A stretch of 64,000 nucleotides of DNA, taken from NCBI GenBank assembly GCA_963767115.1, contig CAVYCR010000007.1, forward strand, positions 21,863-85,862. The letters are read 5' to 3'. This DNA is from Candidatus Kaiserbacteria bacterium. Lineage in GTDB: Bacteria > Patescibacteriota > Minisyncoccia > Phycocordibacterales > UBA2100. The position numbers were made by a program, and so were the translations under genes. Below are positions 579-61,546 of the stretch, in pieces. How positions within the stretch are numbered: the stretch's first letter is position 1; the number at the start of each line of letters is the position of its first letter. Below the pieces are notes generated by a model that was given only the letters and a program-made list of their open reading frames with translations, was not told the origin of the DNA and did not search any database.

Positions 579-1307
579 TTAGTGCAGGACCCGTGGAATC
601 GCAATGTCGTGCCTGACGCTATTGATCAGGTTGATAGGGTAGGCAGCGGCCGCTGTAAATCCACTAACGTCACTTGGGAGCTTAGTCTCTGACTCCATTG
701 CCATGCGGCCTAGGTTGCCGATACCTTCCTCGGCAAAGGAGGTGCCAGTATGCAGGCCTGAGGGGTCAAGAATTGCATACCCACAGGTAAAGAACAGGCA
801 GGCGCACAAAAGAGCTATCAGCTTATGAATGATTTCAAGTGCCGGTGGTATCTGATAGAGGGGTACATGTGCCATGTGCAAAGCAGCGTATGAAGCCCCC
901 GAGGGAGTGTTTGTAAGATCAGAGGCGATAGTGCTTGCCGCGTGACGCCGTGGTTGCGTGAGCGCATTTTCAAATTGATCTTTTATGCTGACACCAGAGG
1001 ATGCCGCATCACGAGAGGAGTCCTCGTCGAATGGGAGTTGAGAATAATGGTAGGTGCCGATACGTTCCTTTGAGAGCTCCTCATTGCGAAGCGTGCGAAC
1101 ATATTGCTGTGATACGATAAATTCTTTTAGGGATTGTTCTGCGACAAACCAACTCCTACCAATACGTTTTCCTGCCACACGATTTTGCCTGCAGAGTCTT
1201 GCAATATAATCGCGGGTCATATGGAAAGAGTCCGACGCGCTTGCTGCTGAGATATATCGAGTGCCGTTTAAGGTTATTTCATTGCCCATAGACAAGTATT
1301 TAGTCAT
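579..1307 (-). CDS. Hypothetical membrane protein: N-terminal excisionase/MerR-like HTH module, linker, one TM helix
   Basis: 242-aa ORF. The segment TRYISAASASDSFHMTRDYIARLCRQNRVAGKRIGRSWFVAEQSLKEFI is paralogous to the N-termini of ORF 1416-2399 and of the giant gene. Hydrophobic helix IIHKLIALLCACLFFTCGYAIL. Confidence 0.7.
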   Translation of the reverse strand: MTKYLSMGNEITLNGTRYISAASASDSFHMTRDYIARLCRQNRVAGKRIGRSWFVAEQSLKEFIVSQQYVRTLRNEELSKERIGTYHYSQLPFDEDSSRDAASSGVSIKDQFENALTQPRRHAASTIASDLTNTPSGASYAALHMAHVPLYQIPPALEIIHKLIALLCACLFFTCGYAILDPSGLHTGTSFAEEGIGNLGRMAMESETKLPSDVSGFTAAAAYPINLINSVRHDIAIPRVLH

Positions 1308-3952: not shown

Positions 3953-4474
3953 AGCTAAACTGTAACAAAAAATAAGAAGCACACAATGCAAATAAGAGTA
4001 ATTCGTTGCGGTTCTATGATAATGGCTCCTATAGAGAGGAAATAGACATATTCTCGTATATCCGATATATATCTATAAATAAGGATATATTTATATCTCG
4101 GATGACGAGATTGTGTAAAAGGATTACAGATTCTCACACCAGCACGATTTATTTGCGAAGCAGTATTTTCTAATTCGTTTTTGATTTCTATGTATATGAG
4201 TCGTCCATACGGAGGCTAGTACCGTCCCCAAGTGCCCTATAAATCCCTGTAGAAATCCCTCTAGAGACGGCGACTCAGTAGGTCTCGGCAAATACGTCAT
4301 GAATGTATTTTAGGGGTTTAAAATATTTTGCTGATCATGTGAGATTGGTAGACAGTAACACTAGTTGTGCAAAGATTTTTACAAGAATCATTTTATCCAC
4401 AGAAGATTTTTTCTCGGCACATTTGCACCCGAATTGTCGGTAAAATACTAACTATTCGTGGTCGTGTGTTCTGT

Positions 4475-7400
4475 ATGAATGACAAAATAAATTCTGATGA
4501 AGATTCGTATGTATCTGCAAACGAGGCAGCGAGTTCTTCTGGGTTCACACGCGATTACATAACACGCTTATCGCGACAAGGAAAAATTAATGCGAAGCGA
4601 ATTGAAAAAAGTTGGTACGTTGATAAACGATCCCTTCAAGAATTCGTTGAGAATCAGGAGGCACAGAAGGAAATTCGACGCAGGCAGCTTATTGATAATT
4701 CACGGAAGCAGAAAGACTTAGTAAAAGTACCCGTCGCTCTTCCTAAGAAAAAGTTGCTTGCGACAAGTGTGTTTTTTGTTGCACTCGGTCTCTTTGGTGT
4801 GGCTACTGCATACCCTGCGATGGAAATTGCGATGGGTAATTTTGGAACAAAGATCGCATCGGATTCTTCTGATAGTAGTTACGGAAAATCAGTAATTAAG
4901 CCACAGTTCGTCACGGCGGGAAATGGCCTTTCCTTGAGCGCTCTACGCACACAAGAAGTCGCTGCGACAGCCGCTTCAACGGGAGGCACAACTATTTTCC
5001 AAAAGCTTGCTCTTGGCCTCACTTCATTTTTCCAGGAACTCTTCAATCCTAATTCAGGATCTGTTTCAATTCAGGTAGCAACATCTAAATCTAGTGCTGC
5101 TAATGTAAATGCAACCTCCAATGTAACTCCATCAGCACAAAATCTGGCGGCTCTTACTGGTACGAATAGCAATGCCAATACATCTGCAAATATAAATGTA
5201 AGCGAGCCAAGCTCAATATCCAGCTCGCTACCAGCGCCCCATAGCGTCAGTAGTAATTTTATTGGTGCTAGCACACCGACTACTGTAGCAACGCCGGTAA
5301 CGACTGTACGGGCGCCCGTTACTGGCACGCGCCCACCTACTGTAATTAACAATATTTATAATACTTATACCTATGCCAGCAGCAGTCCAACCACCTCAAG
5401 CGTGGCCTCACTTGATGCTGTCACGGAAGGTGAATTAGAAAGTAAACTCAACGCACTCTCAGATTCGCTGCACTTCCAATCATATCCGAGTTCAGCCCCT
5501 TCTTCAGGTGGTGCGGCCAACGACATCGCGCTCTCGCAAAACATAGATCAGCTCACAGGGACGACTCTTACTAATGTAAGACTCAATGGAGTGAGTGGTC
5601 TTCAGGCTTCAGATATCCCTGATCTCTCGGGTGATTACCTTGCATTATCCGGCGGGACTCTCACTGGAGCTCTCAATGTAGCTTCTGCGACTGCGACCTC
5701 GACGTTTGCAGACGGTGTCGATCTTACTGGCGGGTGTTTCAGTATCAACGGTGTTTGTATCACTGGTGGCGGTGGGGGCGGCGGCTCTAACCCAGGAGGT
5801 GCTTCCGGAACAATCCAATACAACAATAATGGCACCCTCGCGGGGATTTCGAATTTTACCTATTCGACGACGACCGGCAGTGTAGGCATCGGCACGACAA
5901 CAATTACTTCACTTACATTGGGGTCAGCACTTGGTGTCGGATATGGTGGCACGGGTACAACAACTATCCCCACCTATGGGGAATTGCTCGTCGGCAACAC
6001 TCAAGGAGGTTATGATCTCGTCTCGACGTCTTCGCTCGGCATCGTAGGTGGCGGAGGAGGAGGCGGTGGCCCTGCGACATGGGGAAGTATTACAGGCACA
6101 CTTTCTAATCAAACCGATTTACAAAACGCGCTCAATGCGAAACTATCGCTCACCGACTGGTATGCAACGACAACTGACGGCTTGAAAGAGGGAACCGATA
6201 ATTTGTATTTCACCTCTACACGTGCGCAAAACGCGATTTCGGTCAGTGGGACACCGCTTACTTATTCGGGAGGTGTCATTGGTATCAATCAGGCAAATGC
6301 ATCACAAGCGGGTTTTCTCTCTGCGGTCGATTGGAATACGTTCAATAGCAAACTCTCGTCAACTTCACTCTCAGGAGGTACTGGTATCAACTACAACTCT
6401 GCAACCGGAGTCTTTACAAGCACTGGTGTCACGTCGCTTGCAGCAGCGTACCCGCTCCTTACAACCGGCTCAGGCGCTCTCACGCTGAGCCTGGGTTTTG
6501 GGACGACCACAAGTAATACATGGTCGCAGCTTCAGATGTTCAATGGTGGTGCATCGACCACCAATATAAGTGTCTCTGGTATCGGATATTTCGGTACCGC
6601 GTCCACGACCAACCTCACAATCTCAAGTCTCGGCAACGCACTCCTTTCAACGAATGGAAATGGTTCGGTCATCGCTACCACCTCAATCGGCACCAACCTC
6701 CTCACCGGTTCTCTCGGTACGATCAACGGCACCGCCTTCAATGCGGGATCGTCGATCACTGTCGGCAGTGCATCTACCACTTTGTTGGCGAACAACAACA
6801 CCTTCTCCGGCACCGACACCTTCAACAACACGATCACCGGCTCGATCTCAGGCAACGCAGGCACGGTCACCAACGGCGTCTACACCACTACCTTCAACGG
6901 CCTCTTCGATCCGCGCTTCATCACTGACCTCGCCGCCACCTCATCAATCGGCTCCATCACCACGCTCCCCAACCTCTCCCTGCCGTACAGCCAGATCACG
7001 GGTGCACCTACCTCGTTCGCTTCTTCTACGCTCTTGGGTGACAACAACACCTTCTCGGGCAAGACCACCCTCACCAACGCAACCTCATCAAGCTTCGCGA
7101 TCACGAACCTTGCCAACTCTCTGCTCTCAGTGAACGCAAGCGGCTCGATCATCGCGACGACTTCGATCGGCACCAACCTCCTCACCGGAACCTTGGGTAT
7201 TGGTAACGGTGGCACGGGCTCCACTACGCTCAGCGGCATTCTCGTGGGGAATGGCACAAGCCCGATCAATACATTGACGATTGGCTCGGGCCTCACACTC
7301 CTAGGTACGACACTCTCTACCAGTGGCTCTGGCATCACCGCACTTGGTCCGATCGGACAGACTCAAGCGGGCGGTACACAAACTCTGGCGACGACCAGCG

Positions 7401-10400
7401 CCTCCTTCGATGGACTCACTGCGGGTATAACCATTGTAGGTTCATCCAACACTCAGACCTTCACTCCGACGCTCTCCGGCACCCTCGGGATCGCCGGCGG
7501 TGGCACCGGGCAGAGCTCCTTCGGCTACGGCCTCGTCCTAGGAAACGGCACGAACCCCCTCACCAACATCGCTACATCTTCCTTGGGTCTCCTCACCACC
7601 AATGTTGCAGAAGGAAGCAATCTTTACTTCACCAACGCACGTGCACAATCTGCAATCTCCGTCTCCGGTACACCGTTGACCTACTCAAGTGGTGTAATCG
7701 GTATAAACCAAGCAAACGCTAGCCAATCCGGCTTCCTCGCCTCCAGCGACTGGACCTCCTTCAACAACAAAATCTCAAGTACGTCGCTTTCTGCGACCTA
7801 TCCGCTCGCGTACAACAGCAGTACAGGAATCTTCTCGCTCGGCTTCGGCACCACTACCAGCAACACGTGGGCAGGCACACAAACCTTCACCAATACTTCT
7901 GCAACCAACGCCACAACAACGAACCTCGCTATCATTGGTATCACCAACGCCATTCTATCCACCAACGGTTCGGGTTCCGTCGTCGCGACGACTTCAATCG
8001 GCACCAACCTCCTCACCGGTTCTCTCGGTACGATCAACGGCACTGCCTTCAATGCGGGATCGTCGATCACTGTCGGCAGTGCATCTACCACTCTGCTAAC
8101 GAACAACAACACCTTTAGTGGTTCTGATATTTTCTCGCAACCTCTCTCGTTGAGCTCGACGAATGGCACCACCACGATTGCTTCAGGGCAAGGATTTACT
8201 GTCGGCAGCTCACAGTTTGTGCTGCAGCAGGGAAGCGGCAATGTCGGGGTCGGCACCACCTCTCCTTTTGCAAAATTCTCGGTTGCAGGAAATGCGTTTG
8301 TTAGTGGCAGTCTCACGACAGCAAGTGTACAGGTCTCTGGTGTCCTTACCCTCCCGAACATACTTTCTTGCGTCGGCGGACAAGCACTCCAGACTGATGG
8401 CTCAGGCAACGTAAGCTGCGGTTCTATTAATGTCTCAGGTGCCTCAAGTGGCGGCGGTTGGACCACCAACAATACGGGACGCGTCAGTCTCGCGACTACG
8501 ACCGATCTCGCCGTTGTCGGTGCTTCTACTACACCCTATGCAAAGTTCACTGTGCTTTCGGGCTCGAACTCTACGACCACTCTCGCCCTCATTCCTACTT
8601 CCGGCCAAACAGCAAATATCATCGACATCTACAACACCAGCGGCACTCTCGGATCAGTCTTTAGTGCGGCAGGCTCGCTTGGGATCGGTACTACTTCACC
8701 CGGCTCGATACTTTCTGTCGCTAATGTCGCAAACTTCTCGACGGGAACCTCGACACTCTACTCAGGGCTCAACATCACAAGTGGATGCTTCTCAGTGAAT
8801 GGCATCTGTGTCGGCAGTAGTAGTGCTTCCACAACCCTCCTAGCGAACAACAACACCTTCTCCGGCACCGACACCTTCAACAACACGATCACCGGCTCGA
8901 TCTCAGGCAACGCAGGCACGGTCACCAACGGCGTCTACACCACTACCTTCAACGGCCTCTTCGATCCGCGCTTCATCACTGACCTCGCCGCCACCTCATC
9001 AATCGGCTCCATCACCACGCTCCCCAACCTCTCCCTGCCGTACAGCCAGATCACGGGTGCACCTACCTCGTTCGCTTCTTCTACGCTCTTGGGTGACAAC
9101 AACACCTTCTCGGGCAAGACCACCCTCACCAACGCAACCTCATCAAGCTTCGCGATCACGAACCTTGCCAACTCTCTGCTCTCAGTGAACGCAAGCGGCT
9201 CGATCATCGCGACGACTTCGATCGGCACCAACCTCCTCACCGGAACCTTGGGTATTGGTAACGGTGGCACCAACGCCACCAGCTACACCTCCGGTCAGCT
9301 TCTCTCCTACAACGGAACGAGCTTCGTCTCCACCTCGACGATTGGCAACAACCAGCTTCAGAACTCTACGATCTCAGGCATCGCTCTCGGAAGCAGCCTC
9401 GCCAACCTCTCAGCAACCAATGGATCCCTTACCTTCTCAGCTTCATACAACGGTGGCAGTGCACAAACCATCGGCCTCAACCTCGCAAATGCCAACAGCT
9501 GGACGGGACTCCAGTCCTTCACCAACGCATCAAACACGCTCACGACACTCGGCACTACCTGGTTCTCAGGAATCAACAATGCCATTCTCTCAACCAATGC
9601 AAACGGACAAGTCGTCGCGACGACTTCGATCGGCACCAATCTCCTCACTGGTAATCTCGCCACAGTCAACGGCACCACAATCGCAAACGGCGGCACCTAC
9701 ACGATCACCGCTGCTTCCTCAACGCTCCTTGCCAACTCCAACACCTTCTCAGGATCGAACTCATTCACCGGCAACACGACCTTCGGCGCAGCAACCTCGT
9801 CATCTTTCGCTATCACCGGTCTTTCCTCAACGCTCCTCAAGGTAAACGCAAGCGGCTCTATCGTCCCAGCGATCGCCGGCACTGACTACGCAGCTGCAGG
9901 CTCTGGTGTAACTTCAATTGCGGCAAGCTATCCATTACTGACTAATGGTTCGACTGGTGCAGTTACTCTTTCACTTGGATTCGGCACCACGACTGCCAAT
10001 GCCTGGAGCCAGCTTCAGACATTCAACGGGGGAGCCAGTACCACCAACTTCACCGCCTCTGGTGAAGGATTCTTCACGACTGCGTCAACCACGAACCTTA
10101 ATCTTGGGACTCCTAATGCACTGCTCTCTACCAATGCAAACGGCTCGGTCGTCTCTACAACGGTGAGCGGCCCGCTCTCATTCGCAGGCAATACACTTTC
10201 AATCTCGCAAGCCAATGGCTCTACAAATGGCTTCTTGGCAAGCGGGGACTGGACCACCTTCAATAACAAGATCTCAAGCACGTCACTCTCTGCCACCTAT
10301 CCGCTTGCATACAACTCAAGCACGGGAGTCTTCTCGACTTCTCTTGCAACGACCACCATCCAACAGACCTACGGCACGAGTCAGATCGGAGCAATTACTT

Positions 10401-26500: not shown

Positions 26501-29500
26501 CAACACTCACTACTTCGACGTACTGACCGGTGGTACTAACGCTGGCAACGTCGGCATCGGCACTTCTACACCAACAGCACCACTCTCCATTGGTAATGGC
26601 GGTATCTCAATCAACCGCAACAACGGTCTCGATCCGTACATCGCATTCACCGGTACGAGTAGTCTTATAGGACAGATCCGTGCCAATTATGCGAACAATG
26701 AAATTTATATCGCTAGCGCAAGCGGTGGCGTGCACTACGCTGACTTCCTCACTAATGGTACCAATGCCGGCAACGTCGGCATCGGCTCGACGACTCCCAA
26801 CTCCTTGCTCTCGGTCGGCAACACCAACGGTATCAACTTCTCGACCGCAACCTCCACCTTCTACTCAACCGGCGGTATCAACCTCACCTCGGGTTGCTTC
26901 TCGGTCGGTGGCACCTGTATCGGCACTACGGGCGCATCGACGACACTTCTTTCCAACAGCAACACGTTCTCCGGCAACAACCTTTTCTCTGCTTCCACGA
27001 CTTTCTCCAACCTCATCAACATCAATCAAGCTTCCACATCGCTCGAGACGATCGGCAATGAATATTTCTCCAACCTCTCCAATGCTGTTCTCTCCACCAA
27101 CGCAAACGGCCAAGTCGTCGCTACGACTTCGATCGGCAGCAATCTCCTGACTGGCACCCTCGCTACCATCAATACCCAGACAATTACACCAGGTGGCACG
27201 TTCACCATCACTGCAGCAAGTTCAACCCTCCTCTCCGACAACAACACCTTCTCCGGCACTGATGTCTTTTCCCAACCGCTTACGATCAGTAACACTACAG
27301 GCACGACGACGCTTGCAAGCGGTCAGGGCTTCACGGTCGGCAGCTCGCAGTTCGTCGTGCAGCAGGGAAGCGGCAATGTCGGTATCGGCACTTCTTCTCC
27401 TTCAAATGCACTATCAATTGGCAACGGCGGCATCTCGATCAACCGCAACAGCGGCCTCGATCCGTACATCAGCTTCACCGGAACGAGCACACCGATAGGA
27501 CAAATCCGAGCTAATTACGCTAACAATGAAATTTACGTCGCGAGCGCGAGCGGTGGCATACATTATGCTGATTTCCTTACCGGCGGCACCAATGCGGGAT
27601 TTGTCGGCATCGGCACTTCGACTCCGGGCTCATTGCTCTCACTTAATGGCATCGCCAACTTCACCGCTGCCACCTCCACCTTTTACTCAACCGGCGGTAT
27701 CAATCTCGCTGGTGGCTGTTTTGCAGTAAACGGTTCGTGCATCAATGTGACGGGTGCCTCAACGACGCTCCTCTCCGACAACAACACGTTCTCCGGCAAG
27801 AACACGTTCGGCGCTGCTACTTCATCGAGCTTCGCGATCACCGGACTTTCCAACTCTATCCTCTCGGTCAATGCAAATGGTTCAGTTGTTGCAACTACTT
27901 CAATTGGAATCAACCTGCTCAGTGGAATCATCCCAATCGCCAATGGCGGCACTAACCAAGCATTGCAGACGTCAGGCGGCGTCAACTACTTTGACGGCAC
28001 ACATATCACTTCTGGCACCGGATTGAGCTTCACCGGGACCAATCTCGGTGTCGGTTCGACAAGTCCGAATCATGCGTTGACTGTGGTGAGTACGGTAAAC
28101 GGCGGCAATGCATGGATCGAATCCAGTGCGAACAATGCCGGTCTTGTCATCAACAATACCCAGTCAGGCGGGCGCCAGTTCGAGTTTGATTCTGCTGGTG
28201 GTTCAGCCACCTTGGCCTCATCCTTCTATCTCAATGATGATACGGGAGTCAAAACCCCATTCTTAGTGAATAGCAGCGATGACCTTGGTATCGGTGGCGG
28301 TATCACGAGTAATACGCTTACTGGAGCCGATCTTACGCTCTTGCATAGCGGCAATGTTGGTGTTGGCACTTCGACTCCGGGCTCATTGCTCTCACTTAAT
28401 GGCATCGCCAACTTCACCGCTGCCACCTCCACCTTTTACTCAACCGGCGGTATCAATCTCGCTGCAGGCTGCTTTGCAGTAGGTGGTATCTGCATCAATA
28501 CCACCGGTGCCTCCTCAACGCTCCTTTCCGACAACAACGCGTTCTCCGGACTCAACACGTTCACCCAGCCGCTCACCTTGAGTAACACGACCGGCACTAC
28601 CACGATCGCAAGCGGCCAAGGCTTCACGATCGGGGGATCGAACTTCGTAGTCCAACAAGGAACGGGATTCGTCGGCATCGGCACCTCGAGTCCCTACCAG
28701 ACTCTTTCCGTCAATGGCAACGCAGCATTCAAAACAAGCGCCGGCACTGCCTTCATCAAGAACAACGCGGGAGCTGCCGCTGAATTCGGAAGCTCCGGAT
28801 ACCTCGTTCTTAGTGCAGGCAATACGCAGGGCATCACCTTCGATACGAACGATACGACTGAATTCGCGCGATTCACTCCGAATGGAGCCTTCGGTCTCGG
28901 CACTACAACCCCTTACGGTATTCTCTCGATTGCGGGAGTCGCTGGTGGGGGCGTCGGCAGTTTGCCACTCGTCAGCATTTCCTCCTCGACCGCTGCGTAC
29001 GCGACTTCCACCGTATTCACAATAGACAAGAACGGCCTCGTCGGCATCGGCACCTCGACTCCTGGTTCGGTCTTAGCGATTAATGGCGTCGGAAATTTCG
29101 TCGCAAATTCTACCTCTACCATCTATAACGGCATCAACATCAGCTCGGGCTGCTTTGCAGTCGGAGGCACCTGCTTGCAGCCCTTTAGCGGCACCGCGGC
29201 TTCTTCAACGCTGCTCTTGAACAACAACACGTTCAGTGGATCAAACATCTTCTCCCAGCCGCTCCAGCTCACCTCGACGACCGGCACTACCACGATCGCA
29301 AGCGGCCAAGGCTTCACCGTTGGCGGCTCGCAATTCGTCGTTCAACAGGGAAGTGGTGATGTCGGCGTTGGCACCTCGAGCCCGTTTGCGAAGCTCTCGG
29401 TCGCGGGCAATGCGTACTTTGGCGGTAACCTCACCGCGACCGGTACGCTGCAATTGACCGGCATCACGAGCGGGCTCCTCTCGGCCGACAGCAGTGGTAC

Positions 29501-32500
29501 CGTCACGGCTTCGACTTCGATCGGTACTAGCCTTCTCACAGGAAGCCTCGGTACGATCAACGGCACTGGCTTCACGAGCGGCAGCGCAATCACGATCACT
29601 GCAGCTTCCTCGACGCTGCTTGCGAACTCCAACACCTTCTCCGGCACCAATATTTTCTCATCGCTCCTTAATCTCAACGGCGGTTTGGCTTCCTTTGCAT
29701 CATCCACGATCGGTAATGGCACACAGGGAGGAGGATTGGTCGTCAGCGGCGGCGCGACGACGACCGGCAATGCCGCGATCTTGGGCTCGCTTGCGGTCGG
29801 CACTTCGACCGTTCCCAACGGCGCGCAGCTTTTCATCTACAACACCAACACCGCGGGCTCCATTCCGGCGATACTCATCGGTGGCAACCCGGGCGGCGAC
29901 ACGGACTTCTGGATCGGACGTACCAATACCAACGACGGTCTCAACAACGACTCGCTGCAATTCGGCCAGAGCCTGGTGCCAGGTGCATCGCCGATTCTTA
30001 CCTTGAATTATCAATCCAATGTGGGCATCGGCTCATCGACGCCGTTCGCCAAGTTCAGTATCCAAGGTAATCCGACCGATCCGTCGATCGATACGCTGCT
30101 CTTCCAAGTTGCATCATCAACTGCTTCGGCAACCACAAGCCTCTTCTCAATCTCTAATACCGGATTGATCAACCAGAATCTCATAAAGAATTCGATCATC
30201 GCGGCTGATAACAATGGCAATTTCATTGCGACGACCTCGATTGGCACGAATCTCCTTGCTGGCACACTCGCCACCATTAACACCCAAGCAATCACGCCAG
30301 GCGGCACGTTCACTATCACCGCTGCATCTTCGACACTCCTCGCCAACAACAATACTTTCTCGGGATCAAACATCTTCAGTACGCCGCTTCAGCTCACTTC
30401 GACGACCGGGACGACTACTATCGCTACTGGCCAAGGCTTCACGATCGGATCCAATCAATTCGTCGTCCAGCAAGGAAGCGGTATGGTCGGCGTCGGTACC
30501 ACCACCGACGGACAAAATCCTACACAGATGGGACATCTCACAATTGATGACGGCAACAGCACGACCGAAAACGCGCTCGATATGATCGGCAACGTCAACG
30601 ATTTCCTCGAGAGCAATATCACGAACAACTCAACTGGCGCAAATGCCCAGTCAGGATATTCGGCGACGGCAAACACCGGATCACTCACTACAGGGTTCAT
30701 GTTCATGGGCGTCAACAACAGCAACTTCTGGAATCCGACCGCGTACAATGTTGGCGGCGCACTCGACTCGACGCTCTTGAGCGATTCCAACGATCTCTAC
30801 ATCGCCCAAGGCACTGCAGGAAAGAAGATCCATATATTGAACGGCGGTACCTCGACTTCGACCAATGAGGCACTGACCATCAGTGGTTTGAATGTCGGCA
30901 TCTCGTCATCGACTCCGGGCTCGTTGCTCTCGCTCGGCGGCATCGCAAACTTCACCAGCGCAACCTCAACTCTCTACTCAAGCGGCGGCATCAACATCAC
31001 CAATGGCTGCTTCGCAGTGGGCGGTACCTGTATCTCTGCCGGTGGCGGCTCCGGCACAGTGAGCTCGGGTACACAAGGACAGTTCGCCTTCTACAATGCA
31101 AACGGCACGACGGTCTCCGGTACCTCGACGCTCTCACTCTCGACCGCGGGAGCACTAACCTTCACCGGCAACCTCGTCAATTACACCTCCGTTGCGACTA
31201 CTACGATTGAAAATAACACTCCCTACGCCTGGACCATTGCGACATCTTCGACCGCTGCTCCACTTTTCAATATCAACACGACTAGCGGCTCTGAGACGGT
31301 CTCCATCGGCGTCCCTAATTCCGACATCTATATCGGCGATGTGAACTCCAGTCCGAACCTTGTCTTCCAAAACAGTTCAACCATCGAGACCGCCAGTGGA
31401 GGCACGGTTACCCTCGGTGCCGGCTCCGACACCTTCAACTTCGGCGGCTCTGGCACTACCACTTTCTCCGGTAATGGTATCAACGTGACGACCGGTTGTG
31501 TTGCGGTTGGAGGTATTTGTCTTCCCACCAGTTCAGCATCATCGACGCTCTTAGCCAACAACAACACCTTCAGCGGAAACGACATCTTCTCAACGCTCCT
31601 CAGCCTCAACACCGGATATATCGCGACCGCATCCTCGACGGTAGTAGGCAATTTGACCACTACAGGATTCGTTAATACGAGCGGCACTACCGGCGGCTAC
31701 CAAATCAACGGCAACCTGATCCTCCAGGCATCGACGACCAACAATAGTTTGTTGGTTGGACAAAGCGCGGGAGCGGGCTTGCTAGCCACGGCACTTAATA
31801 ACGTTGCCTTTGGCCTAAACGCACTCAAGAATGCTACGACGACCAATGGTTCCATTTGTATCGGCTGGCAGTCGTGCCAAGGAGCAACCAGTGGCAGCGT
31901 CCTCTCAAACGGCAATATTGGTATCGGTGCAGATGCACTTCTTTCAATCACGACTGGAGGCGGTGCAACACTTAACGCCAACACCGCTGTCGGATCAAGC
32001 TCATTGCTCGCGTTGACCACCGGTTCTGCCAACACGGCTGTCGGTGCATTGAGTGGTACGGCGATCACGACCGGTCAATCCAACGCGCTCTTCGGCGTAA
32101 GCGCGGGTAAAGTGTTATCGGTTGCGAACAACAACTCATTCTTCGGTAGTAGTGCAGGTGCGGGCGATACGGCGAGTAACAACAGTGCCTTTGGAGCAAG
32201 TGCCATGATATCGAATACGACCGGTGGACTTAACTCAGCGTTTGGCTACAGCGCTCTCTTCAAGGTCACGACCAACAGCAATGACACCGCCTTCGGTTAT
32301 TCATCCCTCGCATCGACTACCGGTACCAGCATTACCGGCGTCGGTACCAACGTTGGTCTCAACCTCGTAAACGTCACATCAGCATCGACTACCTACCTCG
32401 GCTCCTTCGCAGGACAAGGTTCAGCTGCAGGCTTCGGACAGATCGGCACGGTAGCGATCGGCGCGGGTTCGGGATGGAACTTCGCCTCGTCTTCCAACTG

Positions 32501-34046
32501 GAACACCTGTGTGGGTACACAATCCTGCTACAACGTCACTTCCGGCGCTGACAACGTACTCATTGGTTCAGCCTCGACCACCGCCAACGAAAACCTTACG
32601 ACCGGTTCAGACAACATCAAGATCGGTGACAATATTTCATTCCCGCTTGCAACCGGCAGCGGCCAGCTTGATATCGGTAACTTGATCTACGGCAGCGGCC
32701 TCGGTTCGACCGGCTCCAACATCGCAGTCGGCAAAGTCGGTATCGGCACCTCGACCCCGGGCTTTACCTTCACAGTGCAGGCCTCAACGTCGCTCGCCTC
32801 GACCCTTGGTGCTTCCGGCAACGCCATCTTCGTAGTCGCTTCCTCAACGAGTGCTACGGCTTCGACCAACGTCTTCACGGTTGCGACCTCGTCAGTGACT
32901 ATCGGCGGCGCCAACGGTACCTGCGTTATTTCCGGAAGCACGGGATGTTCTTCAGACGCGCGCCTCAAGACCAACATCACGCCGATCGCCGGCACGACAT
33001 CGCTCTCCGAGCTCGCGCTCATCAATGGTGTGACATACAACTGGGCTGATCCCACATGGGAACAAGGCCAGCAGGTCGGCGTCATTGCGCAAAACGTGCA
33101 GCAGGCATTCCCGCAGCTTGTCGGTACTGCGCCGGTTACCTTCAGAGGCCAGTCGGGCACTTACTACACGGTCAATTACGCCGGACTTACCGCGCCGTTG
33201 ATCTCAGCGGTCAACCAGATCAATGCCGTCTTCAATGCGACCAATGCCTCGACCAGCGCTTCCTCGATCCTCTCGTATTACGCGGGCTCCACCACGCCGG
33301 CACTCGTGATCGACGCAAACGGCGACCTCTCGATCGGTACCTCGACCGCTGCCACCACGACCAATCAAATGCTCTGCCTCAACGGGTCTTGTGTCTCTCA
33401 ATTCATCTTCGCAACCTCGACCGGCAGTACGACACCGAATATCGCGCCTGATTTCCTTGCCGCACTCAAGTCTGCGCTTACAAGCTGGCTTGCGGATTCT
33501 GCAAACGGCATCGGCGACCTCTTCGCCAAGGATATCTACGCGAGCAATGTGACAGCCGACACCGTGACGGCCAACAAGGAACTCTGTGTCGGCACCGTCT
33601 GTGTGACCCCCGCACAATTCCAAGCGATGGTCGCCGCCTACTCGCAGGGCGCTCCGGCGGGCCAAGCAAGCGGCAGTTCTTCCTCAGGCACGGCCTCGGG
33701 CACTTCGAGCACACCAAGTACTCCGACACCGCCTGTCATATCGATCAACGGTGCCAATCCTGCAATGCTCGACATCGGTGATACCTATAGTGATCTCGGC
33801 GCAACCATTACCGGCCCGCAAGCTGACACCAACCTTGGTATCTCCGCCTCGGTTGATGGGGGAGCGACAACGACCTTAAGCGCGATCCAGATCGACACGA
33901 CTACCGCTGGCACGCATACCATCACGTACAGCGTGACTGACCAAAACGGCCTCACCGGCACGGCATCGCGCACAGTCACGGTGATCGATCCTAGTACTTC
34001 AAGCACCGATGCTTCATCAACTGATGCGACGAGTACGAATCCCTAA
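17442..34046 (+). CDS. Giant cell-surface repeat protein, downstream ORF (continuation of 4475-17440)
   Basis: From GGA 17442 the frame continues the interrupted repeat unit (GQVVASTSIGSNYLTGVLGTING...). It stays open for 5,534 codons to TAA 34044-34046. The ORF-track start (TTG 17001) lies in P/S/T-rich out-of-frame overlap and is not credible. Confidence 0.9.
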   Translation, partial: GQVVASTSIGSNYLTGVLGTINGVSLSRGSSITVASTTLLGDSNTFSGGNIFSASTTIGSGSQTGGLTVGGGATTTGNAYFGGAVRIGVNSGGSYALGVQGTTGTQGLSIFASGLSSANRGIFTFTDSTGNLNYTSNGGTQQNLTFNPTGNVGIGTTSPFATLAISDNTANGTTTAFLISSSTASATTTLFSIANTGTITQNGIKNSLVAADGNGNLIASTTIGTNLLTGNLATINGTTIANGGTYTITAASSTLLANNNTFSGNNLFSASTTFGNLININQASTSLETVGNEYFSNLPNAVLSTNASGQVVATTSIGSNYITGVLGTINGTSFTRGGSITVSGASSTLLSDNNTFSGSNIFSQPLQLTSTTGTTSIAAGQGFTVGASQLVLQQGSGYVGIGTTTPGSLLSLNNIANFTAATSTFYSTGGINLAGGCFAINGSCLNTSGASSTLLANNNTFSGTNSFTGNTTFGAATSTSFAITSLANSLLSVNANGSIIATTSIGTNLLTGNLATVNGTAIANGGTYTITAASSTLLVNNNTFSGSNIFSQPLALSSTSGTTTIASGQGFTIGGSQFLLQQGSGFVGIGTTSPSSLFSVGGNGFIGGNLNVTGTLTAPFTQFGTGAVAEPILTTVGRVIYADQYGTHHDGVTDDTTAIQNALNAASSEGGGTVFLGPYQYLINSANLTIPSQVTLSGQAWPGVPTAANFGSKPYTLLLNPSYTIIGSSNAGLQNVLLLKSGMVAATSTRASMNLVASFAGTAITGNGNDFSVQNVTVGGFNMCFYSSGNGRMVLNQFFGDCTNGVDIDNAHDIGKLHNVEFWSFLSVGFGGAYTVAYPVSNVTTSGSNYDITIPTNVFQTGDTVWVTGVGGAVGANGKWVATVVGPNDIVLQNSAVAPSIVGTTTASSYEVSVATTTALYAGEGVSGTGIPSGDTIAQVSVPASVIWLTQAASATANGTTLSFTNGTYTSGGNVYIDTTIRNGTAYTFTHSEGAECNDCSDIGHQIGFYLGAGASGINIINGASDYDGNLNDPTAINLEVASTSTGSDWSGGWMTSKNTSIYNANASGPATTVSAVNISTVVGGTTADVESGRLIISDSQQWNSSDVLVGSSVGSLTMTGDDMVHTTMMPANSATLAGLSIGGGTQFKSTSVDQGLASLSSPLNGNTGAGSGALDLYLGTSTTGFETAFGYNALQNATSSSDDVAVGYGALTGSATISSVGSNTAIGWNTLNLNTSGHGNAALGAGALYRNTSGSFNIGIGNSALAFNTTSSANTGIGSSALWFSTGAANTAIGYQAGEGVNGSTSGSNNSFFGYNSGFGITTGIGNLFSGFNTASTTASGSYNIALGYDVGFVNPNNSNQLDIGNLIYGTGINGQGTAVSTGNIGIGTSTPGSLLSLNGIANFAVGTSTLYTGLNITSGCYAINGSCINGTGASTTLLSDNNTFSGSTIVGNGTQAGGLTVSGGATTTGTLSVGSGIFLNRASSEPFLVLQSGGTSIGQIRASSTENAVFIASATGAPHYFDVITGGGNAGNVGIGTTSPDELLSVNGNIDTSGVYMIGNQSLLSAFGSTTILGFGAGNAFQSANVGETAIGYQALATATSSFEDTAIGYQALKNEISNNNNPPGNTAIGWNALTADTYGFQNVAMGPGALARNTNGNYNIGIGQAALAFNTTSSGNTGIGSSALWFNTGANNTAIGSSAGQGVNGSSSGSNNSFFGINAGSGITTGNANLFLGSNTGSTTATGSGNVALGYDIGFVNPNNSNQLDIGNLIFGTGLSQGTTVSSGNIGIGTSTPWANLSIINSGSNPGFVVASASGASQLLVDQSGNVGIGTTSPNHLLTIWGSDSSTVLTTTSVAEMNIVNANTTANNAADIALNTIDTNGAAVTGTKLASVFTSHTANAVSADTVFLNRTAGTLSEKMRLTSGGFLGIGTSTPGSLLSLNGIANFAAGTSTLYTGLNITSGCFAVNGTCLVTNGASSTLLSDNNTFSGNENFTGNVGIGTSSPYQAFSVNGNAAFKTTAGTAYIQASGGAGAELGSTGYLTLSGGNSQGVAFDTNDTTELARFTPAGQLGIGTSTPTTVLSFAGVNGIYASTTGNSIFQGGGINLTTGAGQTGCFAINGTCIVTNGASSTLLSDNNTFSGKTTLTNATSSTFAITGLANSILSVNANGTVVATTSIGTNLLSGNLATVNGTTIANGGTYTVTAASSTLLANSNTFSGNNVFSASTTFSNLININQASTSLETVGNEYFSNLPNAVLSTNANGQVVATTSIGTNILTGVLGTINGTPLSRGGSITISTASSTLLSDNDTFSGGDFFSQPLNTSGTTGGYSIDGNLILQASSTLASTLIGQGAGASLTTSFGNVAVGYGALQFATSSPDNVAIGFDALNAFTAAVPPNPGAVGDMTAVGYRALASSTNGYINTAIGYESMYESTSTVENTCVGWTSCGDLQNQFLSTAGSYNVGVGAGALWHDTTGDNNVSVGSDNMRNTVGAQGDVAVGEGSIRNGVPNADIGIGVYALRGQGWYDGNAATSTEADDIAIGTYAMSTTSLTTAQYDTAVGHYSSQNLINGNYNVAFGAFTLQNATSSNNNVAIGYNALLGSSTVSSVGNNTAIGYNSLENDASGASNTALGYSSLASNTSGGNNVGLGYGALTANLAGNNNVAIGLNSLANDNTSGSTGIGASSLLYSTGAGNTAVGFLAGQGVNGSSSGTFNSLFGYQSGFGLTTGAANILLGTNAASTTASGSFNIALGYDVALPSQNGSNQLDIGNLIYGTGINGQGSNVSTGNIGIGTTTPGSIFAIGNVANFTTATSTFYSTGGINLAGGCFAVGGTCINTTGASTTLLSDNNTFSGKNIFAAATSSSFAITGLANSLLSVNANGSIIATTSIGTNLLTGTLGTVNGTAFSVGSSITVGGASTTLLADNNTFSGSDIFSAPLTVGNSINGLTVSGAATTTGSLSVNASISVGGATSTIGAGSIALNRSAADPFFVWSESGNTIAQIRADNVENGLYFADQTGNTHYFDVLTGGTNAGNVGIGTSTPTAPLSIGNGGISINRNNGLDPYIAFTGTSSLIGQIRANYANNEIYIASASGGVHYADFLTNGTNAGNVGIGSTTPNSLLSVGNTNGINFSTATSTFYSTGGINLTSGCFSVGGTCIGTTGASTTLLSNSNTFSGNNLFSASTTFSNLININQASTSLETIGNEYFSNLSNAVLSTNANGQVVATTSIGSNLLTGTLATINTQTITPGGTFTITAASSTLLSDNNTFSGTDVFSQPLTISNTTGTTTLASGQGFTVGSSQFVVQQGSGNVGIGTSSPSNALSIGNGGISINRNSGLDPYISFTGTSTPIGQIRANYANNEIYVASASGGIHYADFLTGGTNAGFVGIGTSTPGSLLSLNGIANFTAATSTFYSTGGINLAGGCFAVNGSCINVTGASTTLLSDNNTFSGKNTFGAATSSSFAITGLSNSILSVNANGSVVATTSIGINLLSGIIPIANGGTNQALQTSGGVNYFDGTHITSGTGLSFTGTNLGVGSTSPNHALTVVSTVNGGNAWIESSANNAGLVINNTQSGGRQFEFDSAGGSATLASSFYLNDDTGVKTPFLVNSSDDLGIGGGITSNTLTGADLTLLHSGNVGVGTSTPGSLLSLNGIANFTAATSTFYSTGGINLAAGCFAVGGICINTTGASSTLLSDNNAFSGLNTFTQPLTLSNTTGTTTIASGQGFTIGGSNFVVQQGTGFVGIGTSSPYQTLSVNGNAAFKTSAGTAFIKNNAGAAAEFGSSGYLVLSAGNTQGITFDTNDTTEFARFTPNGAFGLGTTTPYGILSIAGVAGGGVGSLPLVSISSSTAAYATSTVFTIDKNGLVGIGTSTPGSVLAINGVGNFVANSTSTIYNGINISSGCFAVGGTCLQPFSGTAASSTLLLNNNTFSGSNIFSQPLQLTSTTGTTTIASGQGFTVGGSQFVVQQGSGDVGVGTSSPFAKLSVAGNAYFGGNLTATGTLQLTGITSGLLSADSSGTVTASTSIGTSLLTGSLGTINGTGFTSGSAITITAASSTLLANSNTFSGTNIFSSLLNLNGGLASFASSTIGNGTQGGGLVVSGGATTTGNAAILGSLAVGTSTVPNGAQLFIYNTNTAGSIPAILIGGNPGGDTDFWIGRTNTNDGLNNDSLQFGQSLVPGASPILTLNYQSNVGIGSSTPFAKFSIQGNPTDPSIDTLLFQVASSTASATTSLFSISNTGLINQNLIKNSIIAADNNGNFIATTSIGTNLLAGTLATINTQAITPGGTFTITAASSTLLANNNTFSGSNIFSTPLQLTSTTGTTTIATGQGFTIGSNQFVVQQGSGMVGVGTTTDGQNPTQMGHLTIDDGNSTTENALDMIGNVNDFLESNITNNSTGANAQSGYSATANTGSLTTGFMFMGVNNSNFWNPTAYNVGGALDSTLLSDSNDLYIAQGTAGKKIHILNGGTSTSTNEALTISGLNVGISSSTPGSLLSLGGIANFTSATSTLYSSGGINITNGCFAVGGTCISAGGGSGTVSSGTQGQFAFYNANGTTVSGTSTLSLSTAGALTFTGNLVNYTSVATTTIENNTPYAWTIATSSTAAPLFNINTTSGSETVSIGVPNSDIYIGDVNSSPNLVFQNSSTIETASGGTVTLGAGSDTFNFGGSGTTTFSGNGINVTTGCVAVGGICLPTSSASSTLLANNNTFSGNDIFSTLLSLNTGYIATASSTVVGNLTTTGFVNTSGTTGGYQINGNLILQASTTNNSLLVGQSAGAGLLATALNNVAFGLNALKNATTTNGSICIGWQSCQGATSGSVLSNGNIGIGADALLSITTGGGATLNANTAVGSSSLLALTTGSANTAVGALSGTAITTGQSNALFGVSAGKVLSVANNNSFFGSSAGAGDTASNNSAFGASAMISNTTGGLNSAFGYSALFKVTTNSNDTAFGYSSLASTTGTSITGVGTNVGLNLVNVTSASTTYLGSFAGQGSAAGFGQIGTVAIGAGSGWNFASSSNWNTCVGTQSCYNVTSGADNVLIGSASTTANENLTTGSDNIKIGDNISFPLATGSGQLDIGNLIYGSGLGSTGSNIAVGKVGIGTSTPGFTFTVQASTSLASTLGASGNAIFVVASSTSATASTNVFTVATSSVTIGGANGTCVISGSTGCSSDARLKTNITPIAGTTSLSELALINGVTYNWADPTWEQGQQVGVIAQNVQQAFPQLVGTAPVTFRGQSGTYYTVNYAGLTAPLISAVNQINAVFNATNASTSASSILSYYAGSTTPALVIDANGDLSIGTSTAATTTNQMLCLNGSCVSQFIFATSTGSTTPNIAPDFLAALKSALTSWLADSANGIGDLFAKDIYASNVTADTVTANKELCVGTVCVTPAQFQAMVAAYSQGAPAGQASGSSSSGTASGTSSTPSTPTPPVISINGANPAMLDIGDTYSDLGATITGPQADTNLGISASVDGGATTTLSAIQIDTTTAGTHTITYSVTDQNGLTGTASRTVTVIDPSTSSTDASSTDATSTNP
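19350..20900 (+). other. Pectate-lyase-fold (tailspike-type right-handed beta-helix) domain inside the giant protein; boundaries approximate
   Basis: GRVIYADQYGTHHDGVTDDTTAIQNALNAASSEGGGTVFLGPYQYLINSANLTIPSQVTLSG matches the characteristic start of the Pectate_lyase_3 / glycanase beta-helix family. Non-repetitive sequence follows, with N/G/V-rich rungs (NDFSVQNVTVGGFNMCFYSSGNG..., DCTNGVDIDNAHDIG...). Confidence 0.7.
32949..33240 (+). other. Peptidase S74 / intramolecular chaperone (endosialidase-chaperone) domain of the giant protein
   Basis: SSDARLKTNITPIAGTTSLSELALINGVTYNWADPTWEQGQQVGVIAQNVQQAFPQLVGTAPVTFRGQSGTYYTVNYAGLTAPLISAVNQI follows the family pattern S-D-x-R-x-K-x-N-I...L..L.pv.Y.w.........GfIAQ.v....P.lV.......vdY..l...li.A.Q.l. 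Confidence 0.8.
33732..33989 (+). other. C-terminal bacterial Ig-like (DUF5011-type) domain of the giant protein
   Basis: PVISINGANPAMLDIGDTYSDLGATITGPQADTNLGISASVDGGATTTLSAIQIDTTTAGTHTITYSVTDQNGLTGTASRTVTVID fits the P.I.lnG.np..v..G..Y.D.GAta.D......G.ytitY.vtD..Gn.a.a.RtV.V pattern. It is preceded by an S/T/P linker. Confidence 0.65.
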
Positions 34047-60699: not shown

Positions 60700-60779
60700 G
60701 GCGGCACTCTTGCACATGAGAGGGGTACTTGTCAAGCATTGACAAAAGTGGTGTATTGCGTTATCATAGTGGTACCAAT

Positions 60780-61523: not shown

Positions 61524-61546
61524 GATACGGGTAAACGCACCATTCA

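What the first reader, a model, noticed from the sequence alone, without database searches (positions are those of the whole stretch)
4475..34046. A ~29.6-kb, ~9,856-codon membrane-anchored gene built from phage-tail-fibre-like modules
Two back-to-back ORFs (4367-17566 and 17001-34046) share one repeat grammar and are separated only by a single extra base (see the separate finding). Together they give one reading unit of 4,322 + 5,534 = 9,856 codons, about 46% of the window.

Architecture read from the translation:
1. A cytoplasmic HTH-like module plus one TM helix at the N-terminus, with no signal peptide. The remaining ~9,700 residues should therefore be outside the cell.
2. An S/T/A/P-rich spacer and two poly-Gly runs.
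3. About 34 copies (hand count) of S(S/T)TLL(A/S)(N/D)(N/S)NTFSG. These alternate with LSTNANGQVVATTSIGTNLLTG.LGT(I/V)NG units and GN(V/I)GIGT(S/T)(S/T)P....L motifs. The last motif type is common in tail-fibre proteins that carry an endosialidase-chaperone domain.
4. Five blocks of short NTA(I/V)G(Y/W).(A/S)L-type repeats resembling YadA/Hep_Hag head repeats, at about 12740-13440, 20990-21560, 22165-22775, 24490-25780 and 31745-32700. Each block closes with the same (N/G)QLDIGNLI(Y/F)G(T/S)G signature.
5. A pectate-lyase-fold beta-helix.
6. A C-terminal S74 chaperone domain plus an Ig-like domain.

I know of no described system in which a cell-anchored protein concatenates several tail-fibre units with a depolymerase-like domain. 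In a host-dependent CPR-type cell it is an obvious candidate for a host-attachment and envelope-degrading fibre.
Basis: partly seen in the sequence, partly recalled or inferred. Interest (0 to 1): 0.9.

Follow-up and report, generated by a model that had tools for sequence, protein, structure and literature searches.

The report
Giant anchored fibre protein of CPR bacterium
A tiny, probably host-dependent bacterium devotes about 30 kb of DNA to one enormous membrane-anchored surface fibre partly built from parts that viruses use as tail fibres; in this assembly one extra base splits the gene, and it belongs to a widespread family that nobody has studied.

Summary
ORFs 4367-17566 and 17001-34046 are one reading unit, broken by a single extra A at 17441 inside a repeat motif that four paralogous copies carry intact. 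Removing that base gives 9,856 codons with no stop.

Tool-supported parts:
- N-terminal HTH_17-type domain, then the only strong hydrophobic helix.
- 31-32 STLLxNNNTFSG motifs.
- Five NTAxG blocks, each closed by QLDIGNLIYG.
- A PF12708 pectate-lyase-fold beta-helix.
- C-terminal Peptidase_S74 with an intact Ser/Lys pair, then a bacterial Ig-like domain.

Corrections:
- The NTAxG blocks are not detectably Hep_Hag/YadA. They are a common phage tail-fibre/virion module.
- There is one S74 domain, not several fibre units each with its own.
- The architecture is not unique. Uninterrupted homologues of 1,472, 2,823 and 6,938 aa have the same two ends, and a syntenic sibling gene of 4,326 aa swaps the beta-helix for LVIVD repeats. 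All come from Patescibacteria (Paceibacterota, Kaiserbacteria).

Databases call these proteins "tail fiber domain-containing" or "hemagglutinin". I found no paper on them.

Most likely it is a trimeric, N-in/C-out anchored adhesion and glycan-acting fibre. That function is inferred. Whether the frameshift is an error or a recent lesion is unresolved.

The parts
4475..17440 (+). 5' part of the giant reading unit (codons 1-4322), from ATG 4475
   Evidence: the public gene call starts at the same ATG (P0108)
17441..17441 (+). single extra A that shifts the frame, inside a conserved LSTNAN|GQVVA repeat motif
   Evidence: four paralogous copies lack this base
17442..34046 (+). 3' part of the reading unit (codons 4323-9856 plus stop)
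4508..4657 (+). HTH_17-type helix-turn-helix domain (aa 12-61), predicted cytoplasmic
   Evidence: 29.2 bits alone, GA 27; 9 of 10 family N-termini match HTH_17; conserved at the N-terminus of at least 25 relatives
4748..4822 (+). single transmembrane helix (aa 92-116) preceded by KKK; signal-anchor, N-in
   Evidence: the only strong hydropathy peak (2.13) in 9,856 aa
4823..6070 (+). S/T/A/P-rich spacer with two poly-Gly runs (5765-5785 and 6047-6070)
6152..19298 (+). main body of B-T-A fibre modules (LSTNANG / IGTNLLTG / SSTLLANNNTFSG), GNVGIGT motifs and Cys-pair motifs; the same modules continue after the beta-helix up to about 31700
   Evidence: module profile finds 7,859 proteins
12740..13444 (+). 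NTAxG block 1, closed by QLDIGNLIYG
   Evidence: (phrog_23837 E=1e-24)
19299..20984 (+). unique region with a pectate-lyase-fold beta-helix (Pfam match 19368-19853), tailspike-like
   Evidence: PF12708 34.7 bits; best homologues 41-46%, one in a phage contig
20988..21560 (+). NTAxG block 2, with QLDIGN closure
22164..22775 (+). NTAxG block 3, with QLDIGN closure
24489..25781 (+). NTAxG block 4 (longest), with QLDIGN closure
   Evidence: phrog_6002 E=5.5e-35; phrog_4636 tail spike E=5.6e-30
31743..32705 (+). NTAxG block 5, with QLDIGN closure, directly before the last GNVGIGT motif and S74
32952..33122 (+). Peptidase_S74 intramolecular chaperone; Ser9493 (32952-32954) and Lys9498 (32967-32969) form the SDxRLK pair
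   Evidence: 58 bits; Ser and Lys invariant in alignment A1
33123..33737 (+). linker with a conserved Cys pair (LCVGTVCVT) between S74 and the Ig-like domain
   Evidence: C223 and C228 invariant in A1
33738..33983 (+). bacterial surface Ig-like domain (PF16403)
   Evidence: (43.8 bits)

Best explanation
**What it is**

This is one chromosomal gene of a Paceibacterota/Kaiserbacteria-type (CPR) bacterium. In this assembly a 1-nt insertion interrupts it. Uninterrupted, it would encode a 9,856-aa surface fibre.

**Shown by tool results**
- The N-terminal ~90 aa form an HTH_17-type domain.
- A single hydrophobic helix follows, preceded by KKK.
- The remaining ~9,700 aa are T/G/S/N-rich repeat modules, interrupted by five phage-type tail-fibre repeat blocks and one tailspike-like pectate-lyase-fold beta-helix.
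- The chain ends in an S74 intramolecular chaperone with its Ser/Lys pair intact, a Cys-pair linker and an Ig-like domain.
- The same end-to-end architecture occurs in uninterrupted relatives.

**Inferred from what is known about S74-bearing phage fibres and endosialidases**
- The helix acts as a signal-anchor: the HTH stays in the cytoplasm and everything else is outside.
- The C-terminal chaperone nucleates homotrimerisation from the C-terminus, then cleaves itself off at Ser9493. That leaves a long trimeric fibre held by three N-terminal helices, with a newly exposed distal tip.
- The fibre reaches out from the very small cell. It binds surface glycans of a host or partner cell through its phage-like modules, and the mid-fibre beta-helix cuts or grips them.
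- Module swapping between relatives (beta-helix here, LVIVD propeller or SGNH hydrolase elsewhere) retunes specificity.

The role of the conserved cytoplasmic HTH is unknown.
For: **One gene**
- The junction lies inside a repeat motif, and four paralogues lack the extra base.
- The repeat grammar is shared across both halves.
- HTH+TM occur only at the start and S74+Ig only at the end.
- 5,534 codons stay open downstream of the shift.

**Family**
- P0123 (6,938 aa), P0111 (2,823 aa) and P0128 (1,472 aa) are single ORFs with the HTH+TM N-terminus and the S74+Ig C-terminus.
- At least 25 relatives carry the HTH at their N-terminus.
- The module profile hits 7,859 proteins.
- A syntenic 4,326-aa gene with LVIVD, S74 and Ig-like domains lies upstream of GAPDH in a sibling genome. 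Its C-terminus is 47% identical to this one.

**Cellular context**
- The flanks are GatB, GAPDH, RpiB, Rpe, split transketolase, FBA, PheT and GyrB.

**Phage-like parts**
- PF12708 and the tailspike PHROGs, plus a phage-borne closest homologue.
- NTAxG blocks in at least 484 IMG/VR stretches and 63 GenBank phages, annotated as tail fibre.
- S74 Ser/Lys invariant in the C-terminal alignment.
Against: - Trimer formation, autoproteolysis, export and any binding or enzymatic activity are untested.
- AlphaFold2 monomer models were of low confidence (pLDDT 61 and 53.5), and Foldseek found nothing significant.
- The frameshift, if real, would separate the anchor from the chaperone and probably inactivate the gene.
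- One relative (L002) shows the homologous region in all three frames over more than 23 kb. That could be decay or a noisy assembly.
- Catalytic residues of the beta-helix were not examined.
- The lifestyle and host of this organism are unknown.
Confidence: 0.6

Rival explanations
1. The frameshift is genuine. The locus is a freshly inactivated pseudogene, or a population variant. It yields an anchored 4,363-aa stump without its chaperone and an unexported 3' ORF.
For: - The extra A is not in a homopolymer, where sequencing errors concentrate.
- All housekeeping genes in the window are intact, so the assembly looks accurate.
- A relative's locus (L002) is broken into all three frames.
Against: - There is only one lesion in 29.6 kb, and 5,534 downstream codons remain open, so any inactivation is very recent.
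- Uninterrupted relatives of up to 6,938 aa exist.
- No independent copy of this junction could be found.
Confidence: 0.3
2. The locus is an assembly artefact: a chimeric or collapsed join of several smaller paralogous fibre genes.
For: - The gene is highly repetitive, and one 449-bp pair is 98% identical.
- Short-read Logan contigs and many relatives' contigs break at or inside these genes.
Against: - Most repeats are only 72-94% identical at the DNA level.
- There is exactly one N-terminal anchor and one C-terminal S74/Ig module, in the right order.
- The single-ORF 6,938-aa homologue shows the same layout.
- A mis-join at a shared repeat would not add one base.
Confidence: 0.07
3. The fibre is not for host attachment. 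It forms a protective or spacing coat, or displays a polysaccharide-degrading enzyme for nutrient scavenging or biofilm anchoring.
For: - The composition is extremely T/S/G/N-rich and acidic or neutral.
- Relatives carry varied enzyme or binding cargos: SGNH hydrolase, LVIVD, LysM.
- A second large BNR/sortilin surface protein lies nearby.
Against: - The modules with known homologues are receptor-binding or receptor-cutting parts of phage tails.
- No evidence bears directly on either role.
Confidence: 0.2
4. The gene belongs to a prophage or phage-derived particle (a tail fibre of an integrated virus) and is not a cellular surface protein.
For: The S74, tailspike beta-helix and NTAxG modules are typical of phage tails.
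Against: - No capsid, terminase, portal or integrase gene lies in the window, and the flanks are housekeeping genes.
- The protein has an N-terminal membrane anchor.
- The locus is syntenic in a sibling genome.
- The bulk modules are almost absent from viral contigs.
Confidence: 0.03
5. The extra base marks a programmed +1 ribosomal frameshift. The 0-frame codon after the shift is AGG, a rare Arg codon.
For: AGG accounts for 6 of 152 Arg codons in the window's housekeeping genes.
Against: - There is no slippery sequence.
- tRNA-Asn cannot re-pair on ACA.
- None of the paralogous copies, nor the uninterrupted relatives, has such a site.
Confidence: 0.03

Closest known systems
Phage tail fibres and tailspikes with a C-terminal intramolecular chaperone (endosialidase endoNF, T5 L-shaped tail fibre pb1; Pfam Peptidase_S74)
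   Same: - S74 domain with an SDxRLK Ser/Lys pair at the end of a G/T/S-rich fibre, preceded by a GNVGIGT motif.
- A pectate-lyase-fold beta-helix.
- NTAxG repeat blocks shared with annotated phage tail fibres.
   Different: - Chromosomal and cell-anchored through an N-terminal HTH+TM segment. Phage fibres instead have a virion-attachment domain.
- About ten times longer.
- S74 is followed by an extra Cys-pair linker and an Ig-like domain.
- Most of the length is made of B-T-A modules not found in PHROGs.
Uncharacterised Patescibacteria proteins annotated 'tail fiber domain-containing protein', 'immunoglobulin-like domain-containing protein', 'Hemagluttinin family protein' or 'helix-turn-helix domain-containing protein' (e.g. 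P0151 4,289 aa; P0117 3,277 aa; P0046; P0050; P0123 6,938 aa)
   Same: The same family: the same N-terminal HTH+TM, the same repeat grammar, and the same S74+Ig C-terminus.
   Different: - This one is the longest found here (9,856 aa, against 6,938).
- It carries a beta-helix cargo.
- It is interrupted by one base.
Trimeric autotransporter adhesins (YadA, BadA, Hia)
   Same: - Long repetitive fibre, presumed trimeric.
- Short N(T/S)A(I/V)G-type repeats that superficially resemble head repeats.
- One relative is named 'trimeric autotransporter adhesin' by IMG.
   Different: - No YadA anchor, no Hep_Hag or HIM hits, and no signal peptide.
- Anchored at the N-terminus in the cytoplasmic membrane, whereas autotransporters are anchored at the C-terminus in an outer membrane.
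Giant surface or extracellular proteins of other small-genome or epibiotic bacteria (Apilactobacillus kunkeei Giant1-5, PMC12863079; Omnitrophota giant genes, bioRxiv 10.1101/2023.11.21.568195)
   Same: A very large share of a small genome is spent on one extracellular repeat protein thought to mediate cell-cell interaction or cell-wall attack.
   Different: - Unrelated domain content.
- No S74 chaperone or HTH anchor is reported in what I read of those papers.
- The Omnitrophota paper mentions CPR only in passing.

Membership tests
Peptidase_S74 (intramolecular chaperone of endosialidase / tail fibres) | Profile match above Pfam's gathering score | tested here: met
   55-58 bits against GA 22, full-length match 1-57/58
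Peptidase_S74 (intramolecular chaperone of endosialidase / tail fibres) | Conserved Ser and Lys five residues apart at the autocleavage site (SDxRxK; my knowledge of endoNF Ser911/Lys916) | tested here: met
   S9493-D-A-R-L-K9498; Ser and Lys invariant in 7 sequences of alignment A1
Peptidase_S74 (intramolecular chaperone of endosialidase / tail fibres) | Trimerisation-dependent self-cleavage and release of the domain | not testable with these tools
   Needs expression and mass spectrometry
Pectate-lyase-fold beta-helix (PF12708, tailspike-like) | Profile match above gathering score | tested here: met
   34.7 bits against GA 27 on the isolated region. It was missed when scanned inside a 2,700-aa query. 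Tailspike PHROGs hit at E=3e-8.
Pectate-lyase-fold beta-helix (PF12708, tailspike-like) | Right-handed beta-helix fold and catalytic acidic residues | not tested
PDB sequence hits cover only the N-terminal ~50 residues.
Trimeric autotransporter adhesin (YadA type) | C-terminal YadA-type beta-barrel anchor | tested here: not met
   No such Pfam hit anywhere in the 9,856 aa; the C-terminus is S74 plus Ig-like
Trimeric autotransporter adhesin (YadA type) | Hep_Hag/HIM head repeats | tested here: not met
   - No Pfam hit at E<=5 on any of the five blocks.
- The block profile finds no PDB sequence at E<=10.
- The Foldseek search of the low-confidence model was not significant.
Phage tail-fibre / virion NTAxG repeat module (phrog_6002, phrog_23837, phrog_4636) | Significant profile match, and presence in tail-fibre genes of phages | tested here: met
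   - The three blocks scanned (1, 4 and 5) gave E from 7e-10 to 5.5e-35.
- At least 484 IMG/VR stretches.
- 63 GenBank phages, including Pelagibacter phage HTVC111P tail fibre at 40.5%.
HTH_17 (excisionase/MerR-type helix-turn-helix) | Profile match above gathering score | tested here: met
   29.2 bits against GA 27 for the domain alone, and 21-26 bits inside longer queries. 9 of 10 family N-termini match.
HTH_17 (excisionase/MerR-type helix-turn-helix) | DNA binding | not testable with these tools
   Only weak PDB sequence similarity, to AM32 (E=0.007)
Patescibacteria HTH+TM ... S74+Ig fibre family (unnamed) | N-terminal HTH domain plus one TM helix, B-T-A repeat modules, and a C-terminal S74 + Cys-pair + Ig-like module in one polypeptide | tested here: met
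   All parts are present once the extra base is removed. P0111, P0123 and P0128 show them in uninterrupted ORFs.

The most novel reading that the evidence does not exclude
The family is a previously undescribed kind of cell appendage. It would be a phage-tail-fibre-derived trimeric mega-fibre, possibly longer than the cell itself, that is also a one-component transmembrane signalling device.

The conserved cytoplasmic HTH_17 domain sits at the N-terminus of the fibre. It also occurs in two small HTH+TM paralogues next door. On this reading it would couple contact at the distal tip to DNA binding or gene regulation inside the cell, in the manner of ToxR/CadC. That would give CPR bacteria a direct host-sensing wire.
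Probability: 0.12. Interest if true: 0.9.

Novelty: new variant of a known kind. Interest (0 to 1): 0.62.

Why it matters
How ultrasmall CPR/Patescibacteria find and hold their hosts is largely unknown beyond type IV pili. This locus points to a widespread, unstudied family in which phage receptor-binding hardware is fused to a cell-membrane anchor: an S74 chaperone, tail-fibre repeat blocks and a tailspike beta-helix.

The family can be defined by sequence. Its markers are the HTH+TM start, the B-T-A modules and the S74+Ig end. Its cargo modules differ between sibling genomes, as expected for a specificity determinant.

The locus also gives concrete experiments: self-cleavage at Ser9493, glycan activity of the beta-helix, and cryo-ET of fibres.

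There is a practical lesson too. These genes break short-read assemblies and are mostly deposited as 'partial', so their size and frequency are underestimated.

Tried and rejected
- **AlphaFold2, B-T-A module.** Monomer model of aa 4500-4740 with 22 paralogous or homologous rows: pLDDT 61, pTM 0.28. Unusable.
- **AlphaFold2, C-terminal region.** Model of aa 9085-9600: pLDDT 53.5. It shows only a roughly 17-residue strand periodicity. Foldseek against PDB gave no hit better than E=2.4.
- **NTAxG profile against PDB sequences.** Nothing at E<=10.
- **Pfam Hep_Hag/YadA.** Nothing.
- **NCBIfam.** Only a weak rhamnogalacturonidase N-terminal match.
- **Homologue search with the N-terminal 160 aa.** Nothing at E<=1e-3. 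The HTH family was recovered instead with a local HMM.
- **Independent copy of the junction.** Exact look-ups of ORF A and GyrB in the contig index were not on record. A JGI metagenome DNA scan for the junction, with or without the extra base, gave 0 hits. The only same-strain contig found (L004) starts 132 bp before GAPDH.
- **Window's own genome.** Not among the loci recovered from the GTDB representative genomes.
- **Literature.** Searches on CPR with S74, tail fibre or giant proteins found no description.
- **Rejected readings.** Prophage origin, a trimeric autotransporter, and two independent genes.
Full report
**1. Observation**

The ORF listing shows ORFs 4367..17566 (+) and 17001..34046 (+). 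The first ORF reads ...AILSTNAN then RTSRRLDF..., and stops 42 codons later. The second frame reads ...GQVVASTSIGSNYLTG... at the same place.

The DNA is CTC TCC ACC AAT GCG AAC A GGA CAA GTC. Four paralogous copies of the LSTNANGQVVA motif (at 9587, 16358, 24219 and 27090) read ...AAT/AAC GCx AAC GGx CAA.... So one extra A at 17441 separates the frames.

Removing it gives 9,856 codons from ATG 4475 to the stop at 34044-34046, with no internal stop. The composition is T 16%, G 14%, S 14%, N 10%, A 10% and L 9%.

The public gene call for the first half starts at the same ATG (P0108, 4,363 aa). The window comes from a 91,255-bp NCBI/ENA contig.

**2. Internal anatomy**

Self-comparison shows dense internal repeats of 40-90% identity that cross the junction. 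Examples are aa 4544-4699 vs 6501-6656 at 83%, and aa 2251-2416 vs 4577-4742 at 66%.

Motif mapping gives a recurring triad, here called B-T-A:
- LSTNANGQVVAT (18 copies)
- IGTNLLTG (19 copies)
- SSTLLANNNTFSG (27-32 copies, depending on the regex)

Other recurring elements are:
- 19 GNVGIGTTSP motifs.
- 11 CFSINGxC cysteine pairs.
- Two poly-Gly runs.

Regions without internal paralogues are aa 1-393, 4942-5503 and 9462-9856, plus several short stretches.

At the DNA level the repeats are mostly 72-94% identical. One 449-bp pair reaches 98%.

**3. Domains**

| Feature | Result |
|---|---|
| Peptidase_S74 | 55-58 bits (GA 22) |
| Bact_surface_Ig-like | 41-44 bits (GA 27) |
| PF12708, on the isolated unique region | 34.7 bits (GA 27) |
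| HTH_17 | 21-26 bits inside longer queries; 29.2 bits for the domain alone (GA 27) |
| Hep_Hag/YadA, five NTAxG blocks | no hit even at E<=5 |
| NTAxG block profile vs PDB sequences | no match |

- Hydropathy shows a single strong peak at aa 92-116 (2.13), preceded by KKK. Nothing comparable occurs elsewhere. The N-terminus is hydrophilic, so there is no signal peptide.
- The S74 site reads S9493-D-A-R-L-K9498. In an alignment with six homologous C-termini, this Ser and Lys are invariant, as are two cysteines of the linker.

**4. Phage relationship**

- PHROGs hits for the three NTAxG blocks scanned (1, 4 and 5) are strong: phrog_6002 and phrog_23837 ('virion structural protein') and phrog_4636 ('tail spike'), with E from 7e-10 to 5.5e-35.
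- The beta-helix hits tail-spike PHROGs, and the C-terminus hits tail-fibre PHROGs.
- In GenBank phages, 63 records match. They include Pelagibacter phage HTVC111P 'tail fiber' (40.5%), Methylophilales phage Venkman, Roseobacter phages CRP-1 and CRP-7, and the P-SSM2 proximal tail fibre.
- The closest homologues of the beta-helix region (41-46% identity) are stand-alone proteins of 750-950 aa. One sits between capsid, adaptor and endosialidase-barrel genes in a phage contig.
- The B-T-A modules make up most of the protein, yet they have no PHROG hit and only 7 viral loci.

So 'built from phage-tail-fibre-like modules' holds for the NTAxG blocks, the beta-helix and the C-terminus. It does not hold for the bulk.

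**5. Context and organism**

The flanks are housekeeping genes: GatB (divergent, upstream), GAPDH (49 bp downstream), RpiB, Rpe, a split transketolase, PfkB, FBA, L25, PheT and GyrB. A sortase and an AbiEii toxin also lie in the window. There are no phage genes.

A GAPDH from the same 90% cluster leads to sibling contigs with the same gene order. The GTDB genome holding the best match is titled Candidatus Paceibacterota bacterium MAG_CO249. Repeat-region homologues are named Kaiserbacteria or Paceibacterota.

**6. Relatives**

- *Sibling.* A 4,326-aa gene with LVIVD, S74 and Ig-like domains ends about 1.2 kb upstream of GAPDH. Its last 1,760 aa (L005) have no stops and use the same grammar. 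It carries LVIVD repeats where this gene has a beta-helix, and its C-terminus is 47% identical.
- *C-terminal module.* 84 loci were found in GTDB genomes, mostly Patescibacteria and some Alphaproteobacteria. The ORFs ending in it span 950 to more than 3,600 aa, and many are cut by contig ends.
- *Module profile.* It finds 7,859 proteins at E<=1e-3 among 1.84 billion representatives. The best are 2,823-3,958 aa, and one is 6,938 aa.
- *P0123 (6,938 aa).* It is a single ORF with an HTH-like N-terminus, a TM helix, fibre modules, an NTAxG block ending DQLNIGNLLFG, S74, the Cys pair and an Ig-like domain.
- *P0111 (2,823 aa) and P0128 (1,472 aa).* Both have the same two ends.
- *HTH anchor.* A local HMM of the HTH domain finds it at the N-terminus of at least 25 retrieved relatives, each followed by a hydrophobic peak.
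- *Database names.* 'tail fiber domain-containing protein', 'immunoglobulin-like domain-containing protein', 'trimeric autotransporter adhesin', 'Chaperone of endosialidase', 'Hemagluttinin family protein' and 'helix-turn-helix domain-containing protein, partial'.
- *A broken relative.* One locus (L002) carries more than 23 kb of homologous sequence spread over all three frames. I could not tell a noisy assembly from decay.

**7. The frameshift**

- Arguments for an error or a very recent event: it is the only lesion in 29.6 kb, the whole 16.6-kb downstream frame is open, and intact relatives exist.
- Arguments for a real mutation: the site is not a homopolymer, and the rest of the window has no broken housekeeping genes.
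- Programmed frameshifting is unlikely. There is no slippery site, although the next 0-frame codon, AGG, is rare.
- I could not obtain an independent copy of the junction.

**8. Mechanism**

*Shown:* the domain order and its conservation.

*Inferred from established knowledge of S74-bearing endosialidases and tail fibres:*
- C-terminal chaperone-driven trimerisation.
- Self-cleavage at the conserved Ser.
- An N-in/C-out signal-anchor topology.

Together these predict a trimeric fibre fixed by its N-termini, whose distal tip is exposed after cleavage.

*Plausible but untested:* a role in reaching and binding another cell's surface glycans, with the beta-helix as a depolymerase or lectin. The cargo swap between siblings fits a specificity determinant.

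The two divergent upstream genes (579-1307 and 1416-2399, minus strand) encode one or two copies of the same HTH domain plus a C-terminal hydrophobic helix. This suggests the cytoplasmic HTH has a function of its own.

**9. Known or new**

I found no paper describing these proteins in CPR. Work on giant genes concerns Omnitrophota and other lineages.

The family is catalogued but unstudied, and this is its longest member seen here. I rate it a new variant of a known kind: giant surface fibre or adhesin, and S74-chaperoned fibre. The novel twist is a conserved HTH+TM anchor fused to phage receptor-binding hardware.

**10. Limits**

Both structure models were of low confidence and the fold search was uninformative. 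Fibre geometry, oligomeric state and the fold of the NTAxG blocks therefore remain predictions.

Noticed in passing
window 579-1307 (-) and 1416-2399 (-): Two small divergent genes just upstream encode the same HTH_17-type domain as the giant protein's N-terminus (one copy and two tandem copies), followed by a C-terminal hydrophobic helix. They are small membrane-tethered HTH paralogues next to the fibre gene.
   Followed up: partly
window 38797-42570 (+): A second large (1,257-aa) predicted surface protein with Sortilin-Vps10/BNR (Asp-box) repeats lies 4.7 kb downstream of the giant gene.
   Followed up: no
window 6767-7215 vs 8822-9270: A 449-bp direct repeat inside the gene at 98% identity, far above the 72-94% of the other repeats. 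It may be a recent intragenic duplication or gene conversion, and it is the most likely spot for assembly collapse.
   Followed up: no
window 6001-34000: There is a strong, sustained negative GC skew (-0.07 to -0.31) on the coding strand across the giant gene, against roughly zero in the flanks. The first 1.5 kb of the gene and the upstream region are about 45% GC, against about 55% for the rest.
   Followed up: no
window 59656-62197: A TM-anchored CARDB-like T/S-rich protein (59656-60735, -), a sortase (60729-61523, +) and an AbiEii toxin-type nucleotidyltransferase (61547-62197, -) sit together. This is possibly further cell-surface machinery plus a toxin-antitoxin remnant.
   Followed up: no
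L002 (GCA_037975565.1, contig JBBCBH010010141.1), 1-23078: More than 23 kb of plus-strand sequence is homologous to the giant gene but distributed over all three frames, called as about 12 fragments of 185-1,025 aa. It is either a much-decayed homologue or an indel-rich assembly.
   Followed up: partly
L005 1-5283; JGI 3300050821 contig (no DNA): The sibling genome's syntenic giant gene (4,326 aa) carries about seven LVIVD-type repeats (YVQGxYAYIAEG) in place of the beta-helix. A Peptidase_C93/DUF553 gene lies between it and GAPDH and is absent from the window.
   Followed up: partly
loci L026, L038, L052, L067 (Methylocystis, Bradyrhizobium): The S74 + Cys-pair + Ig-like C-terminal module also ends 1,000-1,300-aa ORFs in cultured Alphaproteobacteria. 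These may be prophage tail fibres. They hint at exchange of this module between CPR and possible hosts or their phages.
   Followed up: no
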